From the IMG/VR virus record IMGVR_UViG_3300045988_154481: a stretch of 64,000 nt of DNA; one strand, given 5' to 3'. Under the pieces are notes generated by a model. The model saw nothing but the letters and a program-made list of their open reading frames with translations. It had not been told where the DNA came from and did no database searches. The position numbers and the translations under genes were made by a program. Shown piece by piece: positions 21,944 through 43,826 of this stretch; position 1 is the first letter of the stretch; the number at the start of each line of letters is the position of its first letter. The DNA is from a virus.

Positions 21944-22017
21944 GGCAATAAGGTGACATACAGCAATCTTTTTAAATTATTGCATTTGGGTAAATATGAA
22001 CGTCACCTACCATTGAT

Positions 22018-22911: not shown

Positions 22912-22928
22912 CATTATAAATTTACATT

Positions 22929-22967
22929 GCGGGGTAGAGCAGAGGCCAGCTCGCCAGCCTCATAACG
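22929..22967 (+). pseudogene. 5' half of a tRNA-Met-like gene (gcggggtagagcag...ctcataa) lacking a T-arm and 3' acceptor.
   Basis: Initiator-like 5' sequence with a CTCATAA loop, but no complementary 3' half downstream. Confidence 0.4.
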
Positions 22968-23066
22968 GACTTATGTCTAAGATGAAGCTTGTCTATTTAT
23001 TTATACGAACCTTTGTAAAGTTCGAAATTTTTTATATATTTGTAGTATAAATTAATAATTAATACT

Positions 23067-23714
23067 ATGAATAAATACTCAAAACAAGAACTAGAAACGT
23101 ATATTTTAAAGGATAAACTTTCATATGCAGCAATTGGAGGCATTTATGGAGTAACTGGAGCGGCAATAAAGAAAGCCGCTTTAAGGTATGGAATTATATT
23201 ACCTAAAAAGAGAACCATAAATGCGAAAGAGAACTTTAGTCACAAAGGGAAATCTAAAGTAGACTCTTTTTCAGATTCAGAATTTATAGAAATTATTTCT
23301 AGTAACATTGGTTGAAAAAATATTGGATCTGCGTTGGGATATACTAACCGCCCATCAAGTGATGTTGTTTCAAATATAAAAAGTAGATGCTCGAAGTTAG
23401 GTATTGAGCCTATTATTGAACAACCTTCTCCAATACTATTTAAAACTAAGGGAGAATTATTATCTTCTAGAAAAAATTACCAAAGTTATAGAAGTTCTAT
23501 TAGAAAACATGCTGAGTTAACTTATTTTAGATCGACTAAGGTTAAAAAATGTGCAATATGTGGATATGATAAACATATAGAAATTGCACATATTAAATCA
23601 GTAGCAGAGTTTGATGATTCTGTAACAATTGCTGAAATCAATTCCATTGATAATCTCATAGCTTTATGCCCTAACCATCATTGAGAATACGATAATGGAT
23701 TGATTACGATATAA
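23067..23714 (+). CDS. HNH homing endonuclease with an N-terminal HTH (two in-frame TGA).
   Basis: ORFs 23067..23315 and 23334..23684 join through a TGA at 23316. The C-terminus reads LCPNHH-W-EYDNGLITI through a second TGA, then stops at TAA at 23712. Confidence 0.75.
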
Positions 23715-23747
23715 GCTGGAGGTCGGAGGTTCGAATCCTCCTCCCGC
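23715..23747 (+). pseudogene. Isolated tRNA 3' half (T-arm ggagg-ttcgaat-cctcc plus acceptor 3' strand tcccgct).
   Basis: There is no complementary 5' acceptor within 90 nt upstream; that sequence is the HNH coding region. Confidence 0.35.
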
Positions 23748-23753
23748 TACTAA

Positions 23754-23838
23754 TTGCGGAGTGTAGTGCGCATGGTAATTGGGTAACCAGCTAGGGTCGC
23801 ATAACCCTAGAGATTCAGGTTCGAATCCTGACTCCGCT
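23754..23838 (+). tRNA. tRNA-like gene, class II length (85 nt), identity unclear.
   Basis: Acceptor gcggagt/actccgc; T-arm tcagg-ttcgaat-cctga; long hairpin ctaggg-tcgcataa-ccctag as a variable arm or anticodon arm. The D and anticodon arms do not fold cleanly by hand. Confidence 0.35.
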
Positions 23839-23916
23839 ACTAATATAAGGTGTCAAACAGCAAACTTTTACAATCGAATGACTTTTAATCATTAAATGAT
23901 GTAGGGATACCTTTCT

Positions 23917-23990
23917 GGAGCATATGGTGTAATTGGCTAACATATCGCCCTGTCACGGCGAAGTTCGGGGTTCGAATCCCCTATGTTCCG
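23917..23990 (+). tRNA. tRNA-Asp(GUC)
   Basis: Acceptor ggagcat/atgttcc (one GU pair); anticodon stem tcgcc/ggcga with loop ctGTCac; T-arm with loop ttcgaat. Confidence 0.6.
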
Positions 23991-24004
23991 CAAAATTATA
24001 ATTT

Positions 24005-24391
24005 ATGGATGTAAAATGGTTATCTGATAAGTCTTTTGTAGTTAAGGGTACTACATATACTGTACAGGTTCCTGTTACTTTAGAGGAAGCTTTGGAAGAG
24101 GTACAAACTGCACTTTCCGAGATAAAAAAGAAAAAGGAGTATTATAAAGGTTTATTGGAAAAACTAAATTTTTCTGATTCTTTTTTGAATAAAGCTCCTA
24201 TCAAAGTAATAGTAGATAAAATTAAAATTGAGGAAGATACATATAAAATGTTATTCTTTCTTAATGAAGAAGAATATAAATATACCTTACATTTAAAAAT
24301 CATTTTAAGAGTACTTGATTTTGTTAACCTAGCATATCATGAACTTGACTATAAAATGAGGTATAAATTAATTCCTGAAGATTTAGACTAA
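24005..24391 (+). CDS. Hypothetical protein.
   Basis: 128-aa ORF. Confidence 0.4.
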   Translation: MDVKWLSDKSFVVKGTTYTVQVPVTLEEALEEVQTALSEIKKKKEYYKGLLEKLNFSDSFLNKAPIKVIVDKIKIEEDTYKMLFFLNEEEYKYTLHLKIILRVLDFVNLAYHELDYKMRYKLIPEDLD

Positions 24392-24459
24392 ATGATAGGT
24401 GCTGATCCTTTATAAATGTGAAAGGCTCTCAAGATATATCTAAATAATAGGAATGATTC

Positions 24460-24548
24460 GGAGGGTTGTCAGAGTTGGTTTATTGTGTCACTCTTGAAAA
24501 GTGATGTACGTGATGAGCGTACCAGGGGTTCGAATCCCTTACCCTCCG
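24460..24548 (+). tRNA. tRNA-Ser(UGA)
   Basis: Acceptor ggagggt/accctcc; anticodon stem tcact/agtga with loop ctTGAaa; long variable arm; T-loop ttcgaat. Confidence 0.7.
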
Positions 24549-24622
24549 CTTTGCGGTAGTAGTTCTTTGTGAAATTCTCTGCGGTATACAGTAAGTGGAA
24601 GCATAAAAGAATTTCACTTTAA

Positions 24623-24694
24623 GCACCTTTGGTGTAATTGGTAACACGATGGTCTCCAAAACCATAGTTTAGAGTTCAAGTCTTTAAGGGTGTG
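24623..24694 (+). tRNA. tRNA-Trp(CCA)
   Basis: Acceptor gcacctt/agggtgt; D-stem gtgt/acac; anticodon stem atggt/accat with loop ctCCAaa; T-arm tagag-ttcaagt-cttta. Confidence 0.65.
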
Positions 24695-24749
24695 CATAGT
24701 TTTATTATTGTTTATTACAAAGTCTCTTCAGCAAATATTATCAATAGGG

Positions 24750-24795
24750 GATTGTAGATCACGGGTTCAAATCCCGTTTATTAGCATAGCTCTAA
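24750..24795 (+). pseudogene. tRNA-like remnant (T-arm acggg-ttcaaat-cccgt without a proper acceptor or D-arm).
   Basis: Only the T-arm is recognisable. It might fold as a D-armless minimal tRNA. Confidence 0.25.
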
Positions 24796-24847
24796 TAATA
24801 GCTCAGTCAGGTAAAGCAACAATATGATATAAATGAGACTTTTTTAT

Positions 24848-24920
24848 CGGGATGTAGCACAGTTGGTAGCGCGCATGCTTTGGGAGCATGAGGCCGCAGG
24901 TTCGAGCCCTGTCATCCCGA
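24848..24920 (+). tRNA. tRNA-Pro(UGG)
   Basis: Acceptor cgggatg/catcccg; anticodon stem catgc/gcatg with loop ttTGGga; T-arm gcagg-ttcgagc-cctgt. Confidence 0.7.
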
Positions 24921-24936
24921 CTATTTCAAACATAAT

Positions 24937-25497
24937 ATGAATAAAATAGATAAGTATTTAAGAAGATTTGCTTATAAGATTGTAACCTCCGAAAGCAAGC
25001 AATCTAGGTATTACACTATTGGTGAGTTAATTGTTAGAGTATCAGATCACATAGGTAGAAATTCTGATGGTGACATATCAATTATCATTGATAGAGAGAA
25101 CTATATATTATATGTTCCAACTACTAATAAAGTAAGTCTTATTCCTTATGAAGATTGTAAGGCTTTGATTAAAGGAATTGTTCTACATGCTTCTTTATTT
25201 TTAACTGGGGATCCTCAATTTCAAAAATCACTGATTAAGGAAAATAGAGCATTAGAAATGCAAGTCCAAACATTAAAGCAGGAATTAAATGATTTGAAAA
25301 CTAGTTCTATAGGTAAACATACTAGTAATACTCCCTTGGTGACTATAAAAACTTTGTTAAATAAATTGACAAAGGGGCAAAAGAAAAGAATTAAGTCTGT
25401 ATATGGGTCTGATTGTTTCTCTAGTATGACTGAGGAACAACTTAGAACAATTTGGAAAAATCCAGAAATTCAAAAATATGTCCAACAAAATAATTAG
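24937..25497 (+). CDS. Hypothetical protein.
   Basis: 186-aa ORF with a coiled-coil segment. Confidence 0.45.
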   Translation: MNKIDKYLRRFAYKIVTSESKQSRYYTIGELIVRVSDHIGRNSDGDISIIIDRENYILYVPTTNKVSLIPYEDCKALIKGIVLHASLFLTGDPQFQKSLIKENRALEMQVQTLKQELNDLKTSSIGKHTSNTPLVTIKTLLNKLTKGQKKRIKSVYGSDCFSSMTEEQLRTIWKNPEIQKYVQQNN

Positions 25498-26284
25498 TAT
25501 GAAATTAAATGTATTACTCGCAAAACTGGAGCAGGGTGCTTCTCAGTTTAAAGCTCTCCTTCGAGATTATACAACCTTCTTTAAGAAGGAGTCAGACAAC
25601 TTTCGAGGGGTTAAAAACACCTACGAACCTCGTCCTGACACTGTAGATCTTCCCAGTGAACGTAAACTCATTGCGGTTGTAACAACTGTAGATGAGAAAT
25701 TTGACTATTTCACTAATATGGTAAAAAGCTATATCAGTGAGATGTTTAATTGTGAAGCAACTAATGCATCGGGAACTGCTCGTGCAGATCTGGTTGTGGA
25801 TGGTAATGTAATTGCTAATCTGAGCAGTCTAGAGCTTCTTAAGCTCAAGTCATTTCTGGAAAATCCTCAGCTTCATGAGATGTTCCAGAACATTCCCGTT
25901 CGTAAAGATTCTGAGATCTGGGAACCATGTACTGAAGAAATGTATGCAGGTCGAGCAATTATGCAGTCTCCCCTTCTGAAAGGTACTAAAAAGTCTATCA
26001 CTAAGACTCAGTACATTTTGGAAGATCCGAATGTTCAGAAGCTCGGCAATGCAACTCACTATCAGCCCCAAATTGCAGTAAAAGATACTGTGATGGAACT
26101 TGGTGATTATACCATGCAGCGTTTCTCTGGTGAATGGACCCCTCGTCAGCGAGCATTAGCTCTTCAGCGTAGAAGTACTCTTCTGTCAGCAACTATTGCT
26201 GCACTGAAAGTAGCAAATGAGGTAGAAGCAGTAAAATCCAATCTGGATTCAGAATGGCTGCTGAACTATCTCCAAGGTAGGTAA
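25478..26284 (+). CDS. Hypothetical protein.
   Basis: 268-aa ORF. Confidence 0.45.
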   Translation: MSNKIISMKLNVLLAKLEQGASQFKALLRDYTTFFKKESDNFRGVKNTYEPRPDTVDLPSERKLIAVVTTVDEKFDYFTNMVKSYISEMFNCEATNASGTARADLVVDGNVIANLSSLELLKLKSFLENPQLHEMFQNIPVRKDSEIWEPCTEEMYAGRAIMQSPLLKGTKKSITKTQYILEDPNVQKLGNATHYQPQIAVKDTVMELGDYTMQRFSGEWTPRQRALALQRRSTLLSATIAALKVANEVEAVKSNLDSEWLLNYLQGR

Positions 26285-26452
26285 TAAAACAAACAAAATA
26301 TTTGACGATAGACTTAGCTTCAGACTTAGACTAAGTAGCAAAGAGCTGTAATATCCTAGATAAATTACAAGGAGCTACATAAGATTTAGTGTCGCGTCAA
26401 AAGCTTTAGTCTCAAGTTAATAAGGATGTGCTAATTCACTAATAAAAAAATC

Positions 26453-26520
26453 ATAAGACTGGGGGTTCGAGTCCCCCATTCGCCGCTAATTAAATCACTA
26501 TATGGCGAATTGGAGAAATG
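26453..26520 (+). pseudogene. Apparently permuted tRNA pieces: a 3' half (ggggg-ttcgagt-ccccc-attcgcc-g) followed 16 nt later by a matching 5' half (ggcgaat-tg-gag-aaatggttaa-ctc).
   Basis: The 5' acceptor GGCGAAT is the exact complement of the upstream 3' strand ATTCGCC, but lies downstream of it. There is no anticodon arm between them. Confidence 0.35.
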
Positions 26521-26643
26521 GTTAACTCGTATGAATACAATAAGTTAAAGTGAGTTAGATGCACATTATCGTACAATATTTAAGAATACTGTAATTCATC
26601 AATGAAGGGGAAGTAAGCGGGCCATGCTTGCTTCTCCATTTTA

Positions 26644-26724
26644 TGGCCCTGTAAGCAAAGTGGTAAAGCTGCTTATATATTCTAGGTTCATAAGTGTGTG
26701 GAGGTTCGAGTCCTTCCATGGCCA
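26644..26724 (+). tRNA. tRNA-like gene (81 nt), anticodon region irregular.
   Basis: Acceptor ggccctg/catggcc (one mismatch); D-stem agc/gct; T-arm ggagg-ttcgagt-ccttc. A candidate anticodon stem gctta/taagt would enclose a 16-nt loop. Confidence 0.3.
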
Positions 26725-26843
26725 CAAATTCTTTACAGTTTTACAATGAATAGGTAACATACAGCAAAGTAAATGGTTTAAGCAAAATTTCTCTTTTAAT
26801 TTAGCGAAAAGGTTCAAGTCCTTATTGTTACCTAGTTTTAGGA

Positions 26844-26930
26844 GCGGGTATGGCGCAATTGGTAGCGCAGATCACTTTTAATGATAAGGGAGCCGAAAGG
26901 CCGTTCAGGGTTCAAGTCCCTGTGCCCGCA
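26844..26930 (+). tRNA. tRNA with anticodon UUU (Lys-type loop ctTTTaa) but a 19-nt variable arm carrying a GAAA tetraloop. It is an atypical class-II-like tRNA.
   Basis: Acceptor gcgggta/tgcccgc; perfect D-stem gcgc/gcgc; anticodon stem gatca/tgata; variable arm agggagccgaaaggccgtt; T-arm caggg-ttcaagt-ccctg. The arm lengths sum to 87 nt. Confidence 0.5.
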
Positions 26931-26949
26931 CAAGTAAAATATATGTTAA

Positions 26950-27567
26950 ATGAGTAGAAAATACACTAAAGAAGAAATAATAAAATGCGTAGAAGGTTCT
27001 AAAACACCTTCTGAATGTTTATTGAAGCTAGGAGTTGCTCCTATTGGAGGAAATTATCCAATGTTGTATAATTTACTAAAATGATATAATATTTCAGTAC
27101 CTTTTAGAATTGGAGCAACTAGGGTTAAAAGTAATTTAAAAAAGAAGTTGATTAATGATAGAGGACATAAATGTGAAATGTGTTTAAATACAGAATGATT
27201 AGAAGATCCTATTCCTTTAGAGCTACATCACATTGATGGAAATCCAGATAACAATGTGGATTCTAATTTAATGCTTCTTTGTCCTAATTGTCATGCTAAA
27301 ACAGATAACTATAAAAGCAAAAATCGGCAAATCAATAAGAAAACCTATGCATGTTCAGAATGTGGTAAAGTTCTAAATTCCGCTTCCATGACTGGATTAT
27401 GTATAACTTGTTTACGTAAATCTTTAAAGAATCCTGTACGACCTTCTAAAGAAGAATTAGAGGAACTTCTAAAGACTAATTCTAAAACAGCACTAGGTAA
27501 GAAGTTTGGAGTTAGTGGCAGAACTATTCTTAAATGATATCGGCAGGATCACGGCATGGATGATTAA
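26950..27567 (+). CDS. HNH homing endonuclease (four in-frame TGA).
   Basis: Manual translation gives CEMCLNTE-W-LEDPIPLELHHIDGNPDNN...LMLLCPNCHAKTDN and the end ...ILK-W-YRQDHGMDD*. The ORF track shows only the 27256..27537 fragment. Confidence 0.8.
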
Positions 27568-27660
27568 TCTTGCATATGTAAAATAAAGTTATTATCTTTG
27601 TAAACACAAGGTTACTTCAGCAAGCTTCTTCTACTGAATTGTATTTTGTTGAACAGCGAT

Positions 27661-27685
27661 CTGGGTTCGAGTCCCAGTTATAGGA
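27661..27685 (+). pseudogene. Isolated tRNA 3' half (ctggg-ttcgagt-cccag-ttatagg-a).
   Basis: No complementary 5' acceptor upstream. Confidence 0.3.
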
Positions 27686-27747
27686 AACTTCAGGGCTGAG
27701 AAGTACTATAGTCGTCTAATGGTAGGATGTAAATTAGAGTAACCTAG

Positions 27748-27844: not shown

Positions 27845-28276
27845 ATGACTACTAAACAATTAGGAAATATAGGTGAGGCGAAAGCTCTTGCTAAATTTGT
27901 TGAACTTCAGATACCTGTATATATTCCATTTGGAGATAATGAAAAGTCAGATTTAATTGCTGACTTTAATGGAAAATTAAATAAAGTCCAGGTAAAAACC
28001 TCTGAAGAGTGAATTGATTCAGAGAAATTTGTTATTAGCCTGGTTAGTTCAACAATGCACAGGAACTCTGGGGAGAAGCACAAATATACTCATGAAGAAA
28101 TAGATTATTTTGCGTGCTATAACCTACAAAGTAATGTATTATTTTTATTACCTATCGAAGTTGTTGAGGGACAAACTATGATTACAATAAGACACCCTTA
28201 CGTTAACGTAGGTAAAAATCAATATAAGAGAATTAATTGAGAAGATTATACTTTTGAAAAAGTATGTAAAGCATAA
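27845..28276 (+). CDS. PD-(D/E)xK-type nuclease-like protein (one in-frame TGA).
   Basis: GNIGEAKALAKFVELQIPVYIPFGDNEKSDLIADFNGKLNKVQVKT reads as D...(D/E)xK. It continues past a TGA at 28238 to a TAA at 28274. Confidence 0.4.
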
Positions 28277-28739: not shown

Positions 28740-28950
28740 CACAACTAGGATTTGTAGTGAAATGTAAAGCCGAGAGTGCGGTATGGACATTGCAGGCTCT
28801 GATATGAAGGCACTCTAATCTATCAGTATTAGTCCAGAGATCAGAAATGATTCAAAGCGAAAATTTCACAGTTGTGTTTTACAAGGTCTCTTACAGCAAC
28901 CTTTATTTAGCAATAGACTTTTAATCTACGGAGCTTTATAGAGACCTTTT
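28740..28950. ncRNA. Structured intergenic element (long-range helix cacaact...agttgtg enclosing gagagtgc...gcactct).
   Basis: Nested inverted repeats and no ORF. Confidence 0.3.
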
Positions 28951-29059: not shown

Positions 29060-29794
29060 ATGAAACGTTTTAAAGAACTTTCAGATGATATAATCAGAAC
29101 TGTGTGAAATAACAGTAAAAGTTTGTTTGAAATTTGTAAAAAGTTAGAAATTCATGATAATATTTCTAATAGAAATAAATTAAAAGAATGGGCAGTTAAA
29201 AATAAAGTGGAGATTCCTGTTACTAACATACTTACAAAAGATAGTTATGAAAAGAATCCTAAACTATGTAAACAATGCGGAAATGTAATTTTATGAAGTA
29301 AAAGAGCCAATGACTTTTGTTCCCATTCATGTAGTGCTACATATCTAAATTTAAAAAGAGAGGCCAAGTCAAGTGGTAAGTATGTTCGTGGTGCTACTTC
29401 TATCTGTATAAATTGTGGAAACGTCATACCTGCAAGAAATCAATATTGTAATCACAAATGCCAAGCTGAATATGCCTACAAGGAATTTATCAAACGCTGA
29501 AAAGAAGGTAAAGAATTAGGAATGGCAGGTGAAGATGGATTATCTGCACATATTCGACGATATTTATTAGAGAAGGCTAATTATACCTGTGAAATTCCAG
29601 GATGTGGATGTAATTTCATTAATCCTTATACTAATTTATCCATTCTTCAGATACATCATATTGATGGAGATGCAACTAACAATAAAGAAGAAAATCTCCA
29701 GGTTTTGTGTCCAAATCATCATGCAATGACTGAACATTTTGGATCAAGGAATAAAAATAGTACTAGACGATATCGATACTCTAAAAATAAATAG
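29060..29794 (+). CDS. HNH homing endonuclease (three in-frame TGA).
   Basis: Manual translation 29060..29794 reads ...RTV-W-NNSK...VIL-W-SKRANDFCSHSC...IKR-W-KEGKELGMAGEDG...QIHHIDGD...LCPNHH. The ORF track shows only the last 90 aa. Confidence 0.8.
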
Positions 29795-30019: not shown

Positions 30020-30101
30020 GCCTCCTTGGCACAGCGGCGACTGCAACGGTTTTGTAATCCGTCTTCATTTGAACGCGTCGGTTCGAGTCCGACAGGAGGC
30101 T
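30020..30101 (+). tRNA. Class-II-length tRNA (82 nt). The anticodon is UGU by position, but the loop ttTGTAa also contains GUA. Thr/Tyr is ambiguous.
   Basis: Acceptor gcctcct/aggaggc; D-stem gca/tgc; anticodon stem acggt/tccgt with a T.T mismatch; 14-nt variable arm; T-arm gtcgg-ttcgagt-ccgac. Confidence 0.45.
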
Positions 30102-30128
30102 CTAAAATTTTATTAAAAACTTTATAAT

Positions 30129-30613: not shown

Positions 30614-30700
30614 CTAATAGGCTACATACAGCAATTAGCTTCTTAATGTATTTTTTTGGATGATAGTGTAGCCTTTCTTTGAAATTAATTATTACAAAAT

Positions 30701-31189
30701 ATGACTTGGTATTTAATTTTATTAGTAATCTCTGCTTGTATCTTAATTGGACAGACAGTTTTATCCTTTATTGGAGGAGAGATTGATGTTGATATGGATA
30801 CAGACATAGATTCGAGTGACATGTTATCTTTTAAGGGTATTGTTCACTTTGTATTTGGATTTTCTCTAACATTGACTACAATGGGAAGAGTTTCAGTACT
30901 ATCTACTTTCGTAGCTGTTTTGGTGGGATTGTTATTTACTGTGATTCTGTTCTATCTTTACAGATACATATATAAGCATCTTCGTCAAGAAATCATCTAT
31001 CAAGATGAAATTAAGGATACTCCCGCACAGGTTTATTATTGGGACTCCGAGTTAAATAAAGGAGAGGTAGTAGTGAAGCTGGAAGGAAGATTAGTATATG
31101 TGGATGCAACATCTACAAAGAATGTTAACTATCAACCTGGAGAATCAGTTATAGTGGAAGGTACACGACATCAAGTAACAATTAAATAA
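30701..31189 (+). CDS. NfeD-like membrane protein.
   Basis: N-terminal transmembrane segments and a C-terminal OB-fold-like GEVVVKLEGRLVYV. It directly precedes the flotillin gene. Confidence 0.5.
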   Translation: MTWYLILLVISACILIGQTVLSFIGGEIDVDMDTDIDSSDMLSFKGIVHFVFGFSLTLTTMGRVSVLSTFVAVLVGLLFTVILFYLYRYIYKHLRQEIIYQDEIKDTPAQVYYWDSELNKGEVVVKLEGRLVYVDATSTKNVNYQPGESVIVEGTRHQVTIK

Positions 31190-31196
31190 TTAAAAG

Positions 31197-32810
31197 ATGA
31201 CTCTATTTATCATTCTCGGTGCAGCACTACTGTTAGTGTTGCTCTCAGTAGTGGGAATTCTCTCACGGTACAGAAAATGTCCTTCTGACAAGATTCTTGT
31301 AATCTTTGGTAAGACGGGAGGCGAAAAATCTGCTAAGTGCATTCATGGAGGAGCAGCTTTCGTGGTACCTATCGTACAGGGTTACAGTTTCATGTCACTT
31401 AAACCTTTGCAGTTTGAGTGTAATCTTCAGAAAGCTCTATCTTCACAGAATATCCGAGTAGATGTTCCAACTACTGTGACTGTAGGTATTTCTACAGAAC
31501 CTGAAGTAATGCAAATGGCTGCAGAGCGATTGCTTGGATTGACTACTGACCAGATTGAAGATCTCGTTAAGGATATTGTATATGGTCAGATGCGTCTAAT
31601 TGTGTCTAATATGACCATTGAAGAGCTGAACTCTGAACGAGACAAGTTCCTGGAAGAAGTGAAGAATGTTGTTGGTGGAGAGCTTCGTAAGATTGGCCTG
31701 CATCTTATCAACGTCAATATCACTGATATCAGGGATGAGGCAGGTTATATCATCGCATTAGGTCAGAAGGACAAAGCAATTGCTCTTAATAAGGCAAATG
31801 TTGAAATCGCTAAGGCTGAAAAAGACGGTGCAACTCAAACTGCAGAGCAGAACAAAATTAAGAACTCTGAAGTTGCTGTAACCCAACGTGAGGAAGCAGT
31901 TGCGGTCGCAGTGGCAAATGCCGAGCGAGATTCCAAGGTTGCAGAAACTCAGCGTACTCGTGATATCAATGTGGCAACTGCTAAAGCAGAAGGTGAGATT
32001 GGTAAAATCGAAGCTGAGAAGACTGTAACAAACAAGAATGCTGAGTTGGAAGTTGTGCGAGCAGATGCTGAAAAGGCTGCAAACACAGCTCGTGTAAAAG
32101 CAGAAGCTGAAGTCGCTAAGGAGAAAGAGCTTGCTCAAGTAGAAGTTGTTAAGGCTGAAGCAAAAGTGCTGCAAGAGCAAGAACTCGCTCAGAAGACTGC
32201 AGAAGAAGCTCGTGCTCAGCGTCAAGAAGCAGCCTTACATGCTGATAAGATTGTACCTGCAGAAATTTCTAAGAAAGAGAGTCTGCTGCGTGCTGAAGCT
32301 TATCAGCTGGAACAGGAGAAAATCGCAGAAACTAATGCTAATAAGACTAAAATCGAAGCTGATGGTAAAGCGCAAGCTGAAGCTCTCAAGGGTGAAGGTG
32401 AGGCTAAAGCCATTACTGCTAAAGGTCTTGCTGAAGCAGAGGTTGTTCGTCAGAAAGGTTTGGCTCAGGCAGAAGCAGAGAAAGCTTCTCTTAAGGCTCA
32501 GGCAGATGGTTTCCGTGAGATGATCGAAGCTGCCAAAACTGATCCTGCGATTGCAATTCAGTTCAAGATGGTTCAAGAAGGAACCTACGAAAACATTGCT
32601 AAGCAACAGGTTGAGGCTTACAAGCACATGAACTTCGGTAATGTGACCATCATGGACACTACGAAGGGTAGAGGCCTCACAGATGTGATGCAGAGCCTTC
32701 TGTCTCAAGTATCCCCCATGCTGAATGTTATGAAAGAAATGAAAATTCCTGGAGTATCAAAGGCATTAGAAGAGAAAACTGAGGATGCTAAATTTCCTGA
32801 AGTTAAGTAA
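31197..32810 (+). CDS. Flotillin (SPFH/band 7 domain, YqiK/FloT-like).
   Basis: N-terminal transmembrane segment, an SPFH region, and a long Ala/Glu-rich coiled coil. The internal ORFs 31758..32225(-), 32146..32523(+) and 32235..32708(-) are repeat artefacts. Confidence 0.75.
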   Translation: MTLFIILGAALLLVLLSVVGILSRYRKCPSDKILVIFGKTGGEKSAKCIHGGAAFVVPIVQGYSFMSLKPLQFECNLQKALSSQNIRVDVPTTVTVGISTEPEVMQMAAERLLGLTTDQIEDLVKDIVYGQMRLIVSNMTIEELNSERDKFLEEVKNVVGGELRKIGLHLINVNITDIRDEAGYIIALGQKDKAIALNKANVEIAKAEKDGATQTAEQNKIKNSEVAVTQREEAVAVAVANAERDSKVAETQRTRDINVATAKAEGEIGKIEAEKTVTNKNAELEVVRADAEKAANTARVKAEAEVAKEKELAQVEVVKAEAKVLQEQELAQKTAEEARAQRQEAALHADKIVPAEISKKESLLRAEAYQLEQEKIAETNANKTKIEADGKAQAEALKGEGEAKAITAKGLAEAEVVRQKGLAQAEAEKASLKAQADGFREMIEAAKTDPAIAIQFKMVQEGTYENIAKQQVEAYKHMNFGNVTIMDTTKGRGLTDVMQSLLSQVSPMLNVMKEMKIPGVSKALEEKTEDAKFPEVK

Positions 32811-32854
32811 TTAATTTCTTTATGAGCTGTATAGTTAATATGCAGCTCTTTTAT

Positions 32855-32940
32855 CCCGACGCGGCTACGATGGTGGAGTGGCACAGCACTGTAAATGCTG
32901 TACATCAGAAACTCATGAGGTTCGAATCCTCACGGCGGGA
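32855..32940 (+). tRNA. tRNA-Tyr(GUA)
   Basis: Acceptor cccgacg/cggcggg (one A.G mismatch); anticodon stem cagca/tgctg with loop ctGTAaa; long variable arm; T-arm tgagg-ttcgaat-cctca. Confidence 0.55.
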
Positions 32941-32955
32941 CTAATTTATATTGAC

Positions 32956-33426
32956 ATGAAAATTGTAGATAATTTTATATTCTTCTGGGGAGGTTGGTTA
33001 AGTAACTTTCATCCTTGTAGAATAGTATTTGGCTCTAAAGTTTTTAAATCATCTGAACAGCTTTTTATGTATCTTAAAGCTTTGCATTTTGGTGATATAG
33101 AAACAGCAGAGAGGATTCTATTAGCAGAGACTCCAAAGGAAGCTAAAACCCTTGGTAGGGAGGTTAGAAACTTTGATGAAAAATCCTGGAATGAGGTTAA
33201 GATTCAGAAAATGTATCTTGCCTTGGAAGGTAAATTTAGCCAAAATAAAGATTTGATGGATAAACTTAAAGACCCAGCATTAAATGGGAAATTCTTTGTT
33301 GAAGCATCTCCCTTTGATAGAGTCTGGGGTATAGGCTATGATCAAGATCATGCACTTCAAAACCAATCAAATTGGGGAGAAAATCTACTTGGTAAGACTC
33401 TTACCTTTTACAGAGAATCTTTATAA
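32956..33426 (+). CDS. NADAR/YbiA family protein.
   Basis: MKIVDNFIFFWGGWLSNFHPC... The motif FFWGG..LSNF is diagnostic. The ORF-track start at 32878 lies inside tRNA-Tyr. Confidence 0.65.
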   Translation: MKIVDNFIFFWGGWLSNFHPCRIVFGSKVFKSSEQLFMYLKALHFGDIETAERILLAETPKEAKTLGREVRNFDEKSWNEVKIQKMYLALEGKFSQNKDLMDKLKDPALNGKFFVEASPFDRVWGIGYDQDHALQNQSNWGENLLGKTLTFYRESL

Positions 33427-33483
33427 ACAATTTGCGGATATTGACATCGCTCAATATCCGCTTTATTTTTAAAACTTAATAAG

Positions 33484-35175
33484 ATGTTTGAAGCAAAAAA
33501 GAAAACATTATTTGCTGTTGATAGCAGTAAATCGGCATCTAAATCAGCCTTTATTCAGGCAGGATTAAAAACTGCAGCAGAAACCACTACAGGTAACGGT
33601 GGTAAAGCCTATTCCAGTACAGGGGATCCCTTCGTTGACCAGTTTGGTAGTACATCTAAGTACAGAGAGATTCGCCCATTTGCAGAAATTGCAAAAGACT
33701 GTGAAATTCTCTGGGCAGAAAATAAAGAAGATACTGTTAAATTTATCTTTTTCTTGCGAATGATTTGTCGTAAGATTAATGATAAAGAGTATGGTACCAA
33801 AGAAGCACAAAAGGGTTCTGAGCTTCGTCATGAAGGTATTATGCGTCTCATCTGGCTACATACCAAAGATAAAGAAGTATTCTGGAAGAATGCTTGGCTG
33901 ATTCCCTTGGTGGGTTCTTGGAAAGATCTCTTCGTTATGCTTCGTTATGACTTAGTTTATAACGGCTGGGAACACCGAGTTCTGGATTGGCGTCGTTTTG
34001 CAGATCTGATTACTGCAGGTCTTGGCTCTGATTCTCAAACGAATCTCATTCGTAAGTATCTTCCTCAGATCAAGGCACGTTCCAAGTGTACTACAGTAAA
34101 GGCACAAGCAAATTGTATGATTGCAAAATGGCTGTGTTCAGAACTTTATGGTGCATCAGGAGCAAAGACAGATGCTGAAAAGTATCAGGTATATCGTTCT
34201 TATGCAAAGATGAAAGCTGCAGGAACAGCACATAGCTGGCAACAGCTTATTTCAAAGCAACGATATACAGAGATTGACTTTGATAAGATTCATGGTCGTG
34301 CCTTAAACCTTCTTGTACACTCCAAGTTCTTAGAGAATCATAATCTCAAAGAGAAGTATCAGGAATGGATAGGAGCTCCAGAGACAAAGGAGGTGAAGTA
34401 CACAGGTTTCGTACATGAGCTCTTTAAACCTATTTGTAACACTGTTCCTTATAATATAGAGCAGCATATCAAAGATACTATTAACAAGCAATTTATGACC
34501 CTTGTTAATAAGTGTAAGGAAGAGGGCAATACTACAGACCTTATCGTAGTACGTGATACTTCTGGTTCAATGGGTGCAGAAGCAACTGGAACTTCCATGT
34601 CTTGCTACAATGTAGGTAAGGCAATTGCTCTGTATTTCTCTTATTTCTTAAGAGGGAGATTCCAAAATGCATGGATTGAGTTTAACTCAAAAGCTATGAT
34701 GCATGAGTGGAAAGGAGAAACTCCTCTGGAGAAATGGTTTAATGACCATTCGGGGTACTATGGAAGTACAAACTTTGAGGGTGTTATTAACCTCTTTGCT
34801 CAGTTGAAGCTTGAAGGTGTTCCAGAAGAGGAATTTCCTAAAGGAATTCTTTGTATCAGTGATTGTGAGTTTGATGCTTCAAGTCTGAATAAGACTTCAG
34901 TTGAAAGAGTCCATGATACATTGACAGCTGCAGGATTTTCTAAAGAGTATGTTGACAATTTTGTCATTTGCCTTTGGAATTTGAGAAATGATTACTACGG
35001 ATATAATGCGCAGAATCGCACTCCATTCCAAACTTATGGTGATGTCAAGAATGTCTACTACATGTCTGGATATTCAGCACAGATTGTATCTTTCTTAAAT
35101 GGAAAGGTACAGACTACACGGGATCTGTTTGATGAGGCTATGAATCAAGAGATTCTGTCTCTCATTAAGATGTAA
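33484..35175 (+). CDS. Large protein with a C-terminal vWA domain (MIDAS DTSGSM). The long N-terminal alpha region could be TROVE/Ro60-like, but this is tentative.
   Basis: LIVVRDTSGSMGAEATGTS...NVGKAIALYF...GSTNFEGV...ILCISDCEFD matches a vWA fold. 563 aa, the size and order expected for Ro60. Confidence 0.55.
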   Translation: MFEAKKKTLFAVDSSKSASKSAFIQAGLKTAAETTTGNGGKAYSSTGDPFVDQFGSTSKYREIRPFAEIAKDCEILWAENKEDTVKFIFFLRMICRKINDKEYGTKEAQKGSELRHEGIMRLIWLHTKDKEVFWKNAWLIPLVGSWKDLFVMLRYDLVYNGWEHRVLDWRRFADLITAGLGSDSQTNLIRKYLPQIKARSKCTTVKAQANCMIAKWLCSELYGASGAKTDAEKYQVYRSYAKMKAAGTAHSWQQLISKQRYTEIDFDKIHGRALNLLVHSKFLENHNLKEKYQEWIGAPETKEVKYTGFVHELFKPICNTVPYNIEQHIKDTINKQFMTLVNKCKEEGNTTDLIVVRDTSGSMGAEATGTSMSCYNVGKAIALYFSYFLRGRFQNAWIEFNSKAMMHEWKGETPLEKWFNDHSGYYGSTNFEGVINLFAQLKLEGVPEEEFPKGILCISDCEFDASSLNKTSVERVHDTLTAAGFSKEYVDNFVICLWNLRNDYYGYNAQNRTPFQTYGDVKNVYYMSGYSAQIVSFLNGKVQTTRDLFDEAMNQEILSLIKM

Positions 35176-35645: not shown

Positions 35646-36227
35646 ATGCGATTACTTGTAGTAGTTGATATGCAAGAAGACTTCATCAGAGGTGCATTAA
35701 CGGTTCCTGGTGCTGAAGAAATAATTTCTCCTATAGAGAGATTAGTTAAAGAGTATATAACAGCAGATGATGCTGTTCTTTTTACTCGGGATACTCATTA
35801 TGAGCATAGTGATACTAGGGGATTTAGTTATGCTATGACTCGTGAAGGTAGAAATCTTCCAATTCTTCATTGCGTTTGTGGAACTGAAGGTCATAAGATT
35901 ATTAAGGAATTTAAACCTTACCTTCGTTCCTGCTATGTAATGGATAAACTAAACAGGTTTGGATTTATTCAGGACGAGTTCAATGATGCCAAGGTAGATG
36001 AAGGAGAATATTTATTTGACCTTACTGGTTACATTACAGAAATTACTCTGGTTGGTGTAGTAACTAACCTTTGTGTTATTTCATGTGCTGTAAGTTTTCA
36101 GCAAATATTCCCTAACGCAGATATCATCATAGATGCTTCCTGCTGTCGTTCTAATAACAATGAACTTCATAACAAAGCTTTAGATGTTATGGAGGGTTTA
36201 CAAATGACTATAATTAATCGTTATTAA
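35646..36227 (+). CDS. pncA: Isochorismatase-family hydrolase (nicotinamidase PncA-like).
   Basis: MRLLVVVDMQEDF...LFTRDTHY...CG is the cysteine-hydrolase fold. Confidence 0.65.
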   Translation: MRLLVVVDMQEDFIRGALTVPGAEEIISPIERLVKEYITADDAVLFTRDTHYEHSDTRGFSYAMTREGRNLPILHCVCGTEGHKIIKEFKPYLRSCYVMDKLNRFGFIQDEFNDAKVDEGEYLFDLTGYITEITLVGVVTNLCVISCAVSFQQIFPNADIIIDASCCRSNNNELHNKALDVMEGLQMTIINRY

Positions 36228-36313
36228 TTTTTTGATTTTTATAAACTTAATGTTTAGAACAGTTTGTGAAATTAAATTTTATTGATATCTTTGTAGTATA
36301 AAACTAATAAAGT

Positions 36314-36802
36314 ATGGATAAAATTTGTTCAAAATGTGGGGAAACTAAAGACATTTCACTCTTTGCTAAGGATCGGCACTCTTCTGATGGATATACTTAT
36401 TGATGTAAAGATTGTAGAAATACAGCAAATAAGAAATATCGGAAAGAAAATCCTGATAAAGTTCAGGAACATAATGAAAAGTGAAAAGATAAAAGAAAAG
36501 AATATTATAGTCTTCCTAAAAATCAAGAAAAGCTTAGAAGACATCATCTCAAGAAAATGTATAATATTACTTTGGAAGACTATGATGCTTTGTTTCAACT
36601 TCAAGGTGGTGTTTGTGCTATATGTGGAAAACCTGAAACAAGCTCAAAGGCTAGTAACTTAGCAGTAGATCATGATCACACAAATGGTAGTATTAGAGGC
36701 CTATTATGTAATAAATGTAATAGAGGCTTAGGATATTTTGAAGATGATGCAACTATTTTGTCTAAAGCTATAGAATATTTAAAAAATAAAGATAATGTTT
36801 AG
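36314..36802 (+). CDS. Recombination endonuclease VII (two in-frame TGA).
   Basis: Manual translation gives CSKCGETKD...GYTY-W-CKDCRN...HNEK-W-KDKR...CAICGKPE...DHDHTNGSIRGLLCNKCNRGLGYF. The ORF track shows only 36557..36802. Confidence 0.8.
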
Positions 36803-39049: not shown

Positions 39050-39050
39050 T

Positions 39051-42175: not shown

Positions 42176-42181
42176 CTTCAT

Positions 42182-42204
42182 AGGCGGATTTACTCCGCCT
42201 TTTA
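42182..42204 (+). terminator. Rho-independent terminator aggcgga-tttact-ccgcct then TTTTAA.
   Basis: 6 to 7-bp GC stem with a T-run, immediately before the tRNA. Confidence 0.55.
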
Positions 42205-42205
42205 A

Positions 42206-42279
42206 GGGCCTTTAGCTCAATTGAATAGAGCATCTGACTACGAATTAGAAGGTTACAGGTTTGAGTCCTGTAGGGCCCA
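42206..42279 (+). tRNA. tRNA-Arg(ACG)
   Basis: Acceptor gggcctt/agggccc; D-stem gctc/gagc; anticodon stem tctga/ttaga with loop ctACGaa; T-arm acagg-tttgagt-cctgt. Confidence 0.7.
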
Positions 42280-43810: not shown

Positions 43811-43826
43811 CTAATAACATTATAAT

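What the first reader, a model, noticed from the sequence alone, without database searches (positions are those of the whole stretch)
22929..27685. Isolated tRNA halves and an apparently permuted tRNA
Five loci look like partial tRNAs. A 5' Met-like half sits at 22929. 3' halves (T-arm plus acceptor 3' strand, no partner) sit at 23715, 26453 and 27661. A T-arm-only remnant sits at 24750. At 26453-26520 the 3' half (…attcgcc-g) is followed 16 nt later by the exactly complementary 5' half (ggcgaat-tg-D-arm), in swapped order. These pieces sit next to HNH homing endonuclease genes. They could be scars of endonuclease-driven rearrangement, split or permuted tRNA genes, or tRNA-derived att sites.
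Basis: seen in the sequence. Interest (0 to 1): 0.55.

Follow-up and report, generated by a model that had tools for sequence, protein, structure and literature searches.

The report
Phage tRNA-mimic Y-like RNAs, split tRNA-Met
The "orphan tRNA halves" are one tRNA-Met gene split by a mobile endonuclease gene plus three conserved small RNAs that copy a tRNA's shape in swapped order. These RNAs belong to a previously undescribed family that sits beside a Ro60-like RNA-binding protein gene in many phages.

Summary
The sequences are real, but they are neither scars nor permuted tRNA genes.

**tRNA-Met.** The 5' half (22929) and the 3' half (23715) are one tRNA-Met(CAU) gene. A 749-nt insertion carrying an HNH endonuclease ORF interrupts its anticodon loop. 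Close relatives have the gene uninterrupted. Distant HNH homologues sit in the same place in other phages' tRNA-Met/Lys genes.

**Permuted elements.** The pieces at 24750, 26453 and 27661 are each a complete circularly permuted tRNA-like domain: anticodon-like stem, T arm, closed 7-bp acceptor hairpin, D arm. This is the architecture of YrlA, the tRNA-mimic Y RNA that partners Ro60.

**Ro60-like gene.** The window encodes a Ro60-fold protein at 33484-35172.

**Distant phages.** In more than 50 distant phage contigs and one cultured cyanophage, homologues of that gene are flanked by tandem arrays of hairpin units. Each unit has a helix and an ACAGCAA motif. Units are separated by GAUA spacers. 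Unit interiors are this same permuted domain, T arms or anticodon-stem-loop look-alikes.

**Support.** Covariation is strong: 61 covariance-model hits, all on the gene's strand.

**Verdict.** This is a new variant of a known kind. Binding to the Ro-like protein and the function are inferred, not shown.

The parts
22928..22965 (+). tRNA-Met(CAU) 5' exon: acceptor 5' strand, D arm, anticodon stem 5' strand CCAGC and loop CTCATAA. The junction is ambiguous within the repeated ATAA.
   Evidence: Uninterrupted orthologue in L013.
22966..23714 (+). 749-nt insertion in the anticodon loop. It has a ~100-nt structured leader with two conserved hairpins, then an HNH endonuclease ORF (23067-23714, with 2 in-frame TGA codons). 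The ORF's stop codon abuts the 3' exon.
   Evidence: Pfam HNH_2, E 2e-11. ARAGORN intron call. Present or absent among relatives. Homologous insertions in other phages.
23715..23750 (+). tRNA-Met(CAU) 3' exon: anticodon stem 3' strand GCTGG, variable loop, T arm and acceptor 3' strand.
24719..24842 (+). Unit B. It has a terminal helix (24719-24726 with 24835-24842) and the motif TTCAGCAA (24727-24734). The permuted tRNA-like domain spans 24751-24823: T arm 24761-24777, acceptor hairpin 24778-24784/24792-24798, then the D arm. The unit ends 5 nt before tRNA-Pro.
   Evidence: (72.3 bits).
26425..26567 (+). Unit C. Its long terminal helix pairs 26425-26440 with 26549-26567 and has no ACAGCAA motif. 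The permuted tRNA-like domain spans 26451-26534, with the acceptor hairpin at 26478-26484/26504-26510. A terminator-like hairpin follows at 26607-26637.
   Evidence: compensatory changes in L009 and L011; 37.4 bits; not in the model seed.
27609..27745 (+). Unit F. It has a terminal helix (27609-27615 with 27739-27745) and the motif TTCAGCAA (27616-27623). The permuted tRNA-like domain spans 27651-27734: T arm 27661-27677, a 6-bp acceptor 27678-27683/27706-27711 capped by an extra hairpin at 27687-27704, and a D arm at 27714-27728.
   Evidence: 7-bp variants in L004 and L014; 37.0 bits.
26751..26834 (+). Unit E. It has a terminal helix, TACAGCAA, an anticodon-arm-like hairpin with an 8-nt loop, and a T arm. 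No tRNA caller recognises it as a tRNA.
23847..23913 (+). Unit with a terminal helix, AAACAGCAA, and a hairpin whose loop CUUUUAA equals the tRNA-Lys(UUU) anticodon loop.
21951..22008 (+). Unit with ATACAGCAA, lying 9 nt upstream of tRNA-Ile.
28883..28948 (+). Unit with TACAGCAA and a CUUUUAA hairpin, upstream of the tRNA at 28953.
30619..30674 (+). Unit with ACAGCAA, downstream of tRNA-Phe.
33484..35175 (+). Gene for a Ro60-like (TROVE-like HEAT ring plus vWA) protein, the inferred protein partner of the units. Pfam families: DUF2828 and DUF7788.
   Evidence: phrog_850, RNA-binding protein; top 7 PDB fold matches are all Ro60/TROVE.

Best explanation
Two different things share this stretch.

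**(A) One tRNA-Met gene interrupted by a mobile endonuclease cassette.**
- The 22929 and 23715 halves are a single tRNA-Met(CAU) gene.
- A mobile 749-nt cassette encoding an HNH homing endonuclease is inserted in its anticodon loop.
- The cassette behaves like a homing element that targets the anticodon-loop DNA of tRNA-Met/Lys genes.
- Whether it is removed from the RNA is not shown. If it is, the mechanism is not that of a classical group I intron.

**(B) Three tRNA-mimic modules of phage small RNAs of the Y RNA / YrlA type.**
- The elements at 24751-24823, 26451-26534 and 27651-27734 are not tRNA genes.
- In each, the RNA's 5' and 3' flanks pair into a terminal helix.
- In B and F the helix is followed on the 5' side by a conserved (U/A)CAGCAA loop motif.
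- The interior folds like a tRNA whose acceptor ends are closed by a loop and whose anticodon loop is opened. The order is: anticodon-like stem, variable loop, T arm, closed 7-bp acceptor hairpin, D arm.

**Shown here:** the structure, its conservation, and its strict genomic linkage to a Ro60-fold protein gene across many phages.

**Inferred steps:**
- The terminal helix plus motif is the docking site for the phage Ro60-like ring.
- The tRNA-shaped module recruits or distracts tRNA-binding factors such as processing, repair or anticodon-nuclease enzymes.
- The units are co-transcribed with the tRNA cluster and released by tRNA-processing cuts. In the window they end 3-10 nt before tRNA 5' ends.
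For: **Architecture**
- Un-permuted B and C are called as tRNAs.
- Rfam YrlA is the only family to hit B. The hit covers exactly its tRNA-like domain: 25.5 bits, model positions 23-86.

**Conservation in close relatives**
- At site B, at least six alleles lie between identical flanks in 15 close relatives. Their 7-bp acceptor stems are fully compensated.
- C and F also show compensatory acceptor changes.

**Covariance model R1**
- It hits C and F, which were not in its seed, at E about 3e-8.
- It finds 61 further domains in 60 distant loci, all on the + strand.
- 90% of cells pair, against about 40% in slid controls. All 7 acceptor pairs show double changes.

**tRNA tertiary signature in those 61 domains**
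- U8 in 61/61, A14 in 61/61, and GG in the D loop in 58/61.
- The 15:48 pair covaries: G:C in 40 and A:U in 11.

**Protein partner**
- The model of 33484-35172 has pLDDT 86.
- Its seven best PDB fold matches are all Ro60/TROVE, including a phage Ro60.
- It shares 24% identity over its full length with mycobacteriophage 'Ro-like RNA binding protein'.

**Genomic linkage**
- 53 of 62 distant homologue loci have at least one helix+ACAGCAA unit within 1.5 kb of the gene, and 44 have two or more.
- Units number 350 on the gene strand against 62 on the other strand.
- 108 inter-unit spacers are exactly 4 nt, and 80 of those read GATA.
- The cultured Leptolyngbya phage Lbo-JY46 has five unannotated units directly after the gene.
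- L016 has two units after the gene and no tRNA in 19 kb.
- An independent pattern scan found true arrays only beside Ro-like genes.

**Published properties of YrlA** (PMC4201824; bioRxiv 10.1101/312249)
- YrlA is a tRNA mimic with a closed acceptor stem and is encoded next to Ro60, also in phages.

**tRNA-Met**
-.
Against: **Membership and binding**
- The defining Ro60-binding motif of YrlA (GNCGAAN0-1G) is absent.
- The Rfam score is far below the gathering threshold (25.5 against 69).
- No experiment links the ACAGCAA helix to the Ro-like protein.

**Position in this phage**
- The units lie 3-12 kb upstream of the Ro-like gene, inside the tRNA cluster, not adjacent to it.
- The gene itself is followed by a terminator-like hairpin (seen by eye).

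**Element-specific weaknesses**
- Element C lacks the ACAGCAA motif.
- The anticodon-like stem is only about 70% paired.
- Minimum-free-energy folding of the AU-rich units does not reproduce the domain.

**Points that leave a tRNA-gene reading open**
- Some domains keep a plausible anticodon loop after the stem (AUGAUAU in B; CUUUUAA and CUGCAAA elsewhere). Descent from real tRNAs is clear, and residual tRNA function cannot be excluded.

**tRNA-Met**
- Intact halves could reflect recent homing rather than splicing.
Confidence: 0.7

Rival explanations
1. The three elements are genuine circularly permuted tRNA genes. The transcript's ends would be cut and ligated at the anticodon loop to form a circle. 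RNase P and a 3' nuclease would then open the acceptor linker to give a normal tRNA, as in Cyanidioschyzon merolae.
For: - The un-permuted sequences are perfect cloverleaves: Ile-GAU and an ACA anticodon.
- Acceptor stems are 7 bp, which suits RNase P.
- The flanks pair and would bring the loop ends together.
- Some domains are followed by a canonical-looking loop sequence.
- Some linkers begin with A-C-C-A.
Against: - Five of the six alleles at site B have no U33/R37-type loop after the stem.
- The junction is a large asymmetric internal loop (24 and 11 nt in B) carrying a conserved non-tRNA motif. By eye it is not a bulge-helix-bulge.
- The same helix+motif scaffold carries interiors that cannot make a tRNA at all: hairpins only, or a T arm only.
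- The window already has tRNA-Ile(GAU) and tRNA-Cys(GCA), and ACA is not a normal anticodon.
- No bacterial or phage pathway for this processing is known (own knowledge).
Confidence: 0.06
2. The pieces are decaying debris of tRNA genes broken by HNH endonuclease activity or by tandem duplication and deletion. They would have no function.
For: - HNH and PD-(D/E)XK endonuclease genes are interspersed in the cluster.
- tRNA content differs between close relatives.
- Tandem tRNAs can mimic the pattern. The model also hits 23715-23791 and 26797-26874, which are junctions of two neighbouring tRNA-like genes.
Against: - Compensatory changes keep every stem paired in 61 independent domains from distant phages.
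- Tertiary-pair covariation is retained.
- All hits are on one strand.
- The domains sit in a conserved scaffold with regular 4-nt spacing.
- F persists with or without the adjacent HNH gene.
Confidence: 0.03
3. The units are structured RNAs that act independently of the Ro-like protein. Examples would be processing or termination signals of tRNA operons, RNase P decoys, or decoys for host anticodon nucleases. On this view the gene linkage reflects only a shared 'RNA island'.
For: - In the window the units abut tRNA 5' ends, with a U-rich tail after the helix.
- Hairpin loops copy the anticodon loops of Lys(UUU), Met, Cys and Gly.
Against: - Only 12 of 62 distant loci have a unit within 60 nt of a tRNA, while 53 of 62 have units within 1.5 kb of the Ro-like gene.
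- L016 has units but no tRNA.
- In about a third of loci the Ro-like gene's own start region folds into the same helix+ACAGCAA form, which suggests recognition by its product.
Confidence: 0.15
4. For the Met halves: the HNH cassette is a true self-splicing or host-spliced intron, so the tRNA-Met remains functional.
For: - The same arrangement occurs with HNH proteins only 44-55% identical in unrelated contigs (L105-107, L121, L122; L119 in tRNA-Lys).
- Both halves are intact there, and the anticodon stems are complementary across the insertion.
- Two leader hairpins are conserved.
- Published precedent: the cyanobacterial tRNA-fMet group I intron carrying the endonuclease I-Ssp6803I (own knowledge).
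Against: - No copy ends in G, and in L105 the 5' exon cannot end in U.
- Only about 100 nt is non-coding.
- Rfam finds no intron or ribozyme family at E<=1 in five loci.
- Intact halves could equally result from recent homing.
Confidence: 0.4

Closest known systems
YrlA (Y RNA-like A; Rfam RF02553), the tRNA-mimic Y RNA partner of bacterial and phage Ro60 (Chen et al. 2014, PMC4201824; Wang et al. 2018, bioRxiv 10.1101/312249)
   Same: - The order of parts is the same: stem formed by the RNA ends, variable region, T arm, closed acceptor stem-loop, D arm.
- tRNA tertiary signatures are kept, including the covarying 15:48 pair.
- It is encoded on the same strand as, and near, a Ro60-fold protein gene.
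- It also occurs in phages.
- The M. smegmatis YrlA likewise has a 7-bp acceptor stem.
   Different: - The GNCGAAN0-1G Ro60-binding motif is absent. An ACAGCAA-type motif sits at the equivalent 5' position.
- The Rfam score is 25.5 bits, against a gathering threshold of 69.
- The protein partner is a divergent family (DUF2828/DUF7788) that Pfam's TROVE model does not recognise.
- In distant phages the units occur as tandem arrays of up to 11 with GAUA spacers.
- Many units carry other tRNA parts instead of the full domain.
- In this window the units are scattered through a tRNA cluster.
Phage Ro60 with Yrl1/Yrl2 of Thermus phage phiLo (PMC12135203), and the abundant unexplained RNAs near the Rsr-like gene of Listeria phage CKA15 (PMC12282133)
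   Same: - A phage-encoded Ro60-fold protein has small structured RNAs encoded beside it.
- phiLo Ro60 is among the best fold matches to the window protein.
- The Listeria phage protein is a sequence homologue.
   Different: - The phiLo Yrls are defined by a CGAA motif and are not described as tRNA-like.
- No arrays are reported for either phage.
Circularly permuted tRNA genes of Cyanidioschyzon merolae, other algae and Thermofilum (own knowledge)
   Same: The 3' half lies upstream of the 5' half, a short linker joins the acceptor strands, and the flanks pair.
   Different: - Those genes carry a bulge-helix-bulge motif cut by the splicing endonuclease and yield real tRNAs.
- Here no such motif was seen by eye, and no such enzyme is known in bacteria or phages.
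- Most alleles have no valid anticodon loop.
- A conserved non-tRNA motif occupies the junction.
Two-piece (permuted) tmRNA (Rfam RF04321)
   Same: It is a bacterial RNA whose tRNA-like domain is encoded in permuted order.
   Different: - The elements have no tag reading frame and no pseudoknots.
- They lack the G3:U70 alanine identity pair (own knowledge); B has A3:U70 and C has C3:G70.
- ARAGORN finds no tmRNA.
- The Rfam hit is only 11 bits.
Endonuclease-bearing group I introns in bacterial tRNA anticodon loops, e.g. cyanobacterial tRNA-fMet with I-Ssp6803I (own knowledge)
   Same: A homing-endonuclease ORF sits inside the anticodon loop of a tRNA-Met gene and is present or absent among relatives.
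   Different: - The splice-junction nucleotides do not fit group I.
- There is no recognisable catalytic core.
- The ORF fills all but about 100 nt of the insertion.

Membership tests
YrlA (Rfam RF02553) | tRNA-like effector domain in the order T arm, closed acceptor stem-loop, D arm, enclosed by a stem | tested here: met
   - The Rfam alignment of B covers model positions 23-86.
- Model R1 hits B, C and F.
- Covariation is shown and the tertiary signature.
YrlA (Rfam RF02553) | Score at or above the Rfam gathering threshold (69 bits) | tested here: not met
   B scores 25.5 bits. C and F are not reported.
YrlA (Rfam RF02553) | GNCGAAN0-1G motif on the 5' strand of the Ro60-binding helix (PMC4201824) | tested here: not met
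   - The motif is not present upstream of B, C or F.
- B and F carry UUCAGCAA instead, and distant units carry ACAGCAA.
YrlA (Rfam RF02553) | Encoded near a Ro60 orthologue | tested here: met
   - A Ro60-fold gene lies at 33484-35172, on the same strand and 6-9 kb away.
- Units are directly adjacent to the gene in 53 of 62 distant loci.
YrlA (Rfam RF02553) | Bound by Ro60 and modified or processed by tRNA enzymes | not testable with these tools
   This needs RIP/EMSA and modification mapping.
Circularly permuted tRNA gene | 3' half upstream of the 5' half, with complementary acceptor strands | tested here: met
Circularly permuted tRNA gene | A valid 7-nt anticodon loop (U33, purine 37) is restored on joining | tested here: not met
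   - Only the window allele of B has such a loop; five other alleles at the same site do not.
- Most distant domains are followed by A-rich sequence.
Circularly permuted tRNA gene | Bulge-helix-bulge motif formed by leader and trailer | tested here: not met
   - By eye only, with no dedicated BHB search.
- The junctions are asymmetric internal loops of 24 and 11 nt (B) or 10 and 14 nt (C) next to 8-16-bp helices.
Two-piece tmRNA | Tag reading frame, pseudoknots and G3:U70 | tested here: not met
   - ARAGORN finds no tmRNA.
- The Rfam tmRNA_permuted hit is 11.2 bits against a threshold of 47.
- Pair 3:70 is A:U in B and C:G in C.
Group I intron in a tRNA gene (for the Met insertion) | 5' exon ends in U, the intron ends in G, and a P3-P9 core is recognisable | tested here: not met
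   - None of five homologous insertions ends in G, and the L105 exon cannot end in U.
- There is no Intron_gpI hit at E<=10 or E<=1.
Homing-endonuclease cassette (for the Met insertion) | Endonuclease ORF, presence/absence polymorphism at one site, and recurrence at the homologous site elsewhere | tested here: met
   - HNH_2 domain.
- Absent in L013, L011 and L003; present in L001, L004, L008 and L012.
- Recurs in the anticodon loops of other phages' tRNA-Met/Lys genes.
Ro60 / TROVE protein (for 33484-35172) | HEAT-repeat ring plus C-terminal vWA domain with a MIDAS motif | tested here: met
   - Full-length Foldseek matches to 9kop, 1yvr, 9l5y, 9nep, 2i91 and 2nvo, E 7e-8 to 3e-4.
- The invariant DTSGSM motif is seen.
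- The Pfam TROVE model itself does not hit; only DUF2828 and DUF7788 do.

The most novel reading that the evidence does not exclude
Many tailed phages may encode a Ro60-like ring protein together with an array of small RNAs that share one docking module (helix plus ACAGCAA). Each RNA would display a different piece of tRNA: the whole elbow-and-acceptor body, a T arm, or the anticodon stem-loop of a particular tRNA (Lys-UUU, Met-CAU, Cys-GCA, Gly-GCC and others).

Such a panel could serve as decoys or sensors for host tRNA-cleaving defence nucleases. It could also act as a scaffold that holds tRNA-repair or processing enzymes. On this reading the hypervariable cassette at 24751-24823 would reflect an arms race. 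The system would be a modular, RNA-based counter-defence of a kind not yet described.
Probability: 0.3. Interest if true: 0.85.

Novelty: new variant of a known kind. Interest (0 to 1): 0.7.

Why it matters
Y RNAs and Ro60 are conserved from bacteria to humans, yet what the tRNA-like YrlA domain does is still unknown.

- **Extent.** This finding extends the system to a large phage protein family that Pfam lists only as domains of unknown function. The search returned 1623 homologues.
- **Organisation.** The RNA partners come as arrays with interchangeable tRNA-part modules.
- **Testable hypothesis.** That arrangement suggests the Ro60-like RNP is aimed at tRNA-directed enzymes during infection. 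The idea can be tested in the cultured Leptolyngbya phage Lbo-JY46.
- **Annotation.** It also explains a class of "orphan tRNA halves" that tRNA finders miss or mis-call in phage genomes.
- **Second element.** It flags an endonuclease cassette specialised for tRNA anticodon loops whose removal mechanism, if any, is unknown.

Tried and rejected
**Met insertion**
- Group I intron: rejected on junction nucleotides and on the absence of Rfam hits.
- Archaeal-type BHB intron: I found no pairing between the loop and the intron ends by eye, and the L105 junction range excludes position 37/38.

**The helix+CAGCAA element**
- Sigma-70 promoter: the scan found no excess over shuffles.
- Plain intrinsic terminator, MITE with terminal inverted repeats, integron attC site, or HDV-like ribozyme: each considered by eye. 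All were rejected because the helix covaries, the motif is strand-specific, and the elements form arrays next to one gene family.

**Searches and methods that led nowhere**
- CTTCAGCAA as an exact motif in the window is not enriched on its own (30 matches against 21 expected). Only motif plus helix is informative.
- Minimum-free-energy folding does not recover the tRNA-like fold in these AU-rich RNAs.
- blastn of the region against cultured phages found only ordinary tRNA and HNH matches.
- The IMG/VR pattern scan returned mostly chance singletons.
- The Burroughs & Aravind 2016 paper on Ro/Y RNA and Band-7/tRNA-like RNA repair systems is not held in the library. I cite it only from memory.
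- Pfam and PHROGs scans of 30 window proteins found no RNA ligase, RtcB, polynucleotide kinase or CCA-adding enzyme.

Full report
**Setting**

The window is part of a ~176-kb phage genome. Its best match is IMG/VR contig 3300045988_162375. G+C content is 35%.

ARAGORN finds 26 tRNAs, all on the + strand. Rfam adds two more tRNAs and a Pistol ribozyme. The finding lies in the densest part of this tRNA cluster.

**The Met halves**

- Joining 22929-22965 to 23715-23749 gives a canonical tRNA-Met(cat).
- The insertion holds an ORF (23067-23714) with an HNH_2 domain, E 2e-11. The ORF's stop codon touches the 3' exon.
- Among 15 close relatives fetched through the neighbouring DUF7873 gene, L013 has the same tRNA-Met uninterrupted, with a compensated anticodon stem. 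L011 and L003 have another intact tRNA-Met at that site. L001, L004, L008 and L012 carry the insertion.
- HNH proteins only 44-55% identical sit in the anticodon loops of tRNA-Met genes in unrelated contigs (L105-107, L121, L122) and of a tRNA-Lys(ctt) gene (L119). Other homologues lie free beside tRNA-Met genes.
- Across these copies the two anticodon-stem strands stay complementary (CCAGC/GCUGG, CUGGG/CCCAG, CAAGG/CCUUG, CUAGG/CCUAG). Two hairpins in the ~100-nt leader are conserved.
- None of the insertions ends in G. In L105 the upstream exon cannot end in U. Rfam reports no intron or ribozyme family.

I conclude that this is a homing-endonuclease cassette specialised for tRNA anticodon loops. 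RNA-level removal is plausible (about 0.4) but unproven, and it would not be a classical group I reaction.

**The three "orphan" 3' halves are permuted tRNA-like domains**

Each 3' half is followed by its own 5' half:

| Element | Acceptor 3' strand | Between the acceptor strands | Acceptor 5' strand | Then |
|---|---|---|---|---|
| B | TTATTAG | 7 nt | CTAATAA | UA, D arm, ACAAT (pairs with upstream ATTGT) |
| C | ATTCGCC | 19 nt | GGCGAAT | D arm, TATGA (pairs with upstream TCATA) |
| F | TTATAG | 22 nt, containing an 18-nt hairpin | CTATAG | D arm |

- Un-permuted B and C are accepted as tRNAs by ARAGORN.
- The only Rfam family to notice B is YrlA. It matches exactly the tRNA-like domain of that model, whose consensus structure has the same order of parts.
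- YrlA is the Y RNA subclass whose effector domain mimics tRNA with a closed acceptor stem. It is encoded next to Ro60 in bacteria and phages (PMC4201824; bioRxiv 10.1101/312249).

**Conservation**

At site B, all 15 relatives share the flanks ...AAAGTCTCTTCAGCAA and GAGACTTTTT.... Between those flanks lie at least six very different alleles. Each has a perfectly compensated 7-bp acceptor stem:
- TTATTAG/CTAATAA
- TTAATAG/CTATTAA
- CCAACTG/CAGTTGG
- CTAACTG/CAGTTAG
- CCAATAG/CTATTGG
- CTGGGTA/TACTCAG

C and F also show compensatory acceptor changes. C's linker varies while its stems are kept. F is intact whether or not the adjacent HNH gene (26950-27567) is present.

I built a covariance model from 19 such domains (A2, R1).
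- In the window it scores B at 72 bits, and C and F, which were not in the seed, at 37 bits each (E about 3e-8).
- The next two hits, 23715-23791 and 26797-26874, are junctions between two neighbouring tRNA-like genes. Chen et al. warned of this artefact.

**A shared scaffold**

B and F sit inside a hairpin whose stem is formed by the flanks. The stems are AAAGUCUC/GAGACUUU in B and GGUUAC/GUAACC in F. On the 5' side the stem is followed by UUCAGCAA.

The same helix+(N)ACAGCAA arrangement occurs at 21951, 23847, 26751, 28883 and 30619, each 3-10 nt from a tRNA. These units have different interiors:
- 23847 and 28883 contain a hairpin with the loop CUUUUAA, the anticodon loop of tRNA-Lys(UUU).
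- 26751 contains an anticodon-arm-like hairpin plus a T arm.

C has a longer terminal helix (26425-26440 with 26549-26567) and no such motif.

**The protein partner**

- ORF 33484-35172 matches only Pfam DUF2828 and DUF7788, and phrog_850 "RNA-binding protein".
- An AlphaFold model built on 40 homologues has pLDDT 86.
- Its seven best PDB fold matches are all Ro60/TROVE structures, aligned over the full length. They include Xenopus Ro60, D. radiodurans Rsr and the Ro60 of Thermus phage phiLo.
- By tblastn it is 24% identical over its full length to mycobacteriophage "Ro-like RNA binding protein". It is also homologous to the DUF2828 protein of P100-like Listeria phages.

**Linkage in distant phages**

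I fetched 80 loci around homologues of this protein, of which about 60 are 42-56% identical.
- 53 of 62 distant loci have at least one helix+ACAGCAA unit within 1.5 kb of the gene, and 44 have two or more.
- Units number 350 on the gene strand against 62 on the other strand.
- Units begin with AG/AA and end with CU/UU.
- 108 consecutive pairs of units are exactly 4 nt apart, and 80 of those spacers read GAUA.
- Arrays reach 11 units.
- The cultured Leptolyngbya phage Lbo-JY46 has five unannotated units immediately after the gene.
- L016 has two units after the gene and no tRNA in 19 kb.
- Only 2 of 295 units overlap an ARAGORN tRNA call. Only 12 of 62 loci have a unit within 60 nt of a tRNA.
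- A sequence-pattern scan of IMG/VR that made no reference to the protein returned mostly chance singletons. Every true array it found lies beside a Ro-like gene.

**Unit interiors and structure**

Model R1 finds 61 permuted domains in 60 distant loci, all on the + strand.
- 90% of cells pair, against about 40% in slid controls.
- All seven acceptor pairs and four of the five T-stem pairs show changes on both sides.
- The alignment is fitted to the model, which favours the structure. The anticodon-like stem pairs in only 70% of cells.
- U8 and A14 are invariant. GG is present in 58 of 61 D loops. The 15:48 tertiary pair covaries as G:C (40) or A:U (11).
- Domains my strict scan missed still sit in scaffolds with variant motifs such as ACAGCAU and ACUGCAA.
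- In my motif scan, 102 of 280 units contain a tRNA-type 5-bp/7-nt-loop hairpin (T arm or anticodon-like), against about 6 expected from shuffles.

**Interpretation**

Shown:
- B, C and F are conserved, structured, tRNA-shaped RNA elements in the YrlA arrangement.
- B and F belong to a large family of helix+ACAGCAA units that is tightly linked to a Ro60-fold gene in many phages.

Inferred:
- The helix and motif bind that protein, by analogy with the conserved helix of Y RNAs.
- The tRNA-like module engages tRNA-binding factors.
- The units are released from tRNA-cluster transcripts.

The permuted-tRNA reading fails on several counts. Valid anticodon loops are lacking in most alleles. The junction is motif-bearing and, by eye, not BHB-like. 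Many scaffolds have interiors that cannot make a tRNA. The scar reading fails on covariation.

Membership of Rfam YrlA fails on score and on the GNCGAAN0-1G motif. I therefore file this as a new variant of the Y RNA/YrlA kind, not as a member of that family.

**Novelty check**

Full-text searches found three relevant papers: the YrlA papers, the phiLo Ro60/Yrl paper (its RNAs carry a CGAA motif and are not described as tRNA-like), and a Listeria phage transcriptome that noted abundant unexplained RNAs near an Rsr-like gene. None describes ACAGCAA arrays or modular tRNA-part units.

The library is incomplete. A 2016 comparative-genomics paper that, as I recall, discusses Ro/Y RNA and Band-7/tRNA-like RNA systems could not be read.

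Noticed in passing
window 23067-23714, 26950-27567, 27845-28276, 29060-29794, 47416-48000; tRNAs at 47310-47400 and 26645-26725: The endonuclease genes (HNH and PD-(D/E)XK) contain 2-3 in-frame TGA codons each and almost no TGG. The core genes use TGG and have no in-frame TGA. No listed ORF needs TGA as its stop. The window also encodes tRNAs with anticodons UCA and CUA (suppressor-like). This suggests partial or mobile-element-specific TGA-to-Trp recoding.
   Followed up: partly
window 7881-7951: A Pistol self-cleaving ribozyme is present at 72.5 bits, well above the Rfam gathering score of 34.5.
   Followed up: no
window 24751-24823 versus L001-L015: The tRNA-like domain of unit B is a hypervariable cassette. 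At least six very different alleles lie between flanks that are essentially identical in otherwise 92-100% identical phages. This could reflect module swapping or diversifying selection.
   Followed up: partly
window 33482-33539; gene starts in L037, L039, L041, L050, L051, L066, L077, L079, L082 and others: In about a third of the loci the 5' end of the Ro60-like gene itself reads AG-AUG-UUU-(G/A)AC-AGC-AAA. It pairs about 40 nt downstream with (A/G)ACAUCU. This reproduces the helix+ACAGCAA unit with the start codon inside the helix, and could be an autoregulatory operator. The window copy is degenerate (GAAGCAA).
   Followed up: partly
window 23756-23838: A tRNA-Met-like gene lies directly after the interrupted tRNA-Met. 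It has a 7-bp acceptor stem, a T arm and a CAU-containing loop of 6 or 8 nt. Its D region is enlarged and branched. Neither ARAGORN nor the Rfam tRNA model calls it. It is present only in L004 and L012 among the relatives.
   Followed up: partly
window 23847-23913 and 28883-28948; L098 6733-6790 and 6893-6956; L071 7381-7443: Several units contain a hairpin whose 7-nt loop is CUUUUAA, the anticodon loop of tRNA-Lys(UUU). That tRNA is the classic target of anticodon nucleases such as PrrC (own knowledge). Other units copy Met, Cys and Gly loops.
   Followed up: partly
window 27845-28276: A PD-(D/E)XK endonuclease (Pfam PDDEXK_5, E 2e-26) starts 16 nt after tRNA-Asn. From memory, this Pfam family includes the tRNA-fMet intron endonuclease I-Ssp6803I.
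   Followed up: no
window 30701-33426 and 35646-43537, 45092-45574: The genes around the Ro-like gene include an NfeD-like membrane protein with a Band-7/SPFH protein, NADAR, isochorismatase, a cREC receiver domain and a vWA protein. By motifs seen by eye, there are also NAMPT-, NadE-, adenylosuccinate-synthetase- and PRPP-synthetase-like genes. This is the kind of NAD/RNA-repair conflict island described for jumbo phages (PMC7824862).
   Followed up: partly
L163 83-159 (Listeria phage AG20, NC_020871.1): A YrlA-like permuted domain (R1 23.9 bits, E 4e-5) lies about 3 kb upstream of the phage's DUF2828 'RNA-binding protein' gene. An annotated tRNA splicing ligase (RtcB) lies 1.2 kb downstream of that gene. 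It may correspond to one of the abundant RNAs reported for the related phage CKA15 (PMC12282133).
   Followed up: partly
window 26844-26931, 30020-30102, 43726-43811, 26645-26725: Several otherwise normal tRNAs (Lys-UUU 88 nt, Thr 83 nt, Arg-UCU 86 nt, CUA-anticodon 81 nt) are unusually long. For the Lys tRNA, the extra sequence appears by eye to lie in the variable region.
   Followed up: no
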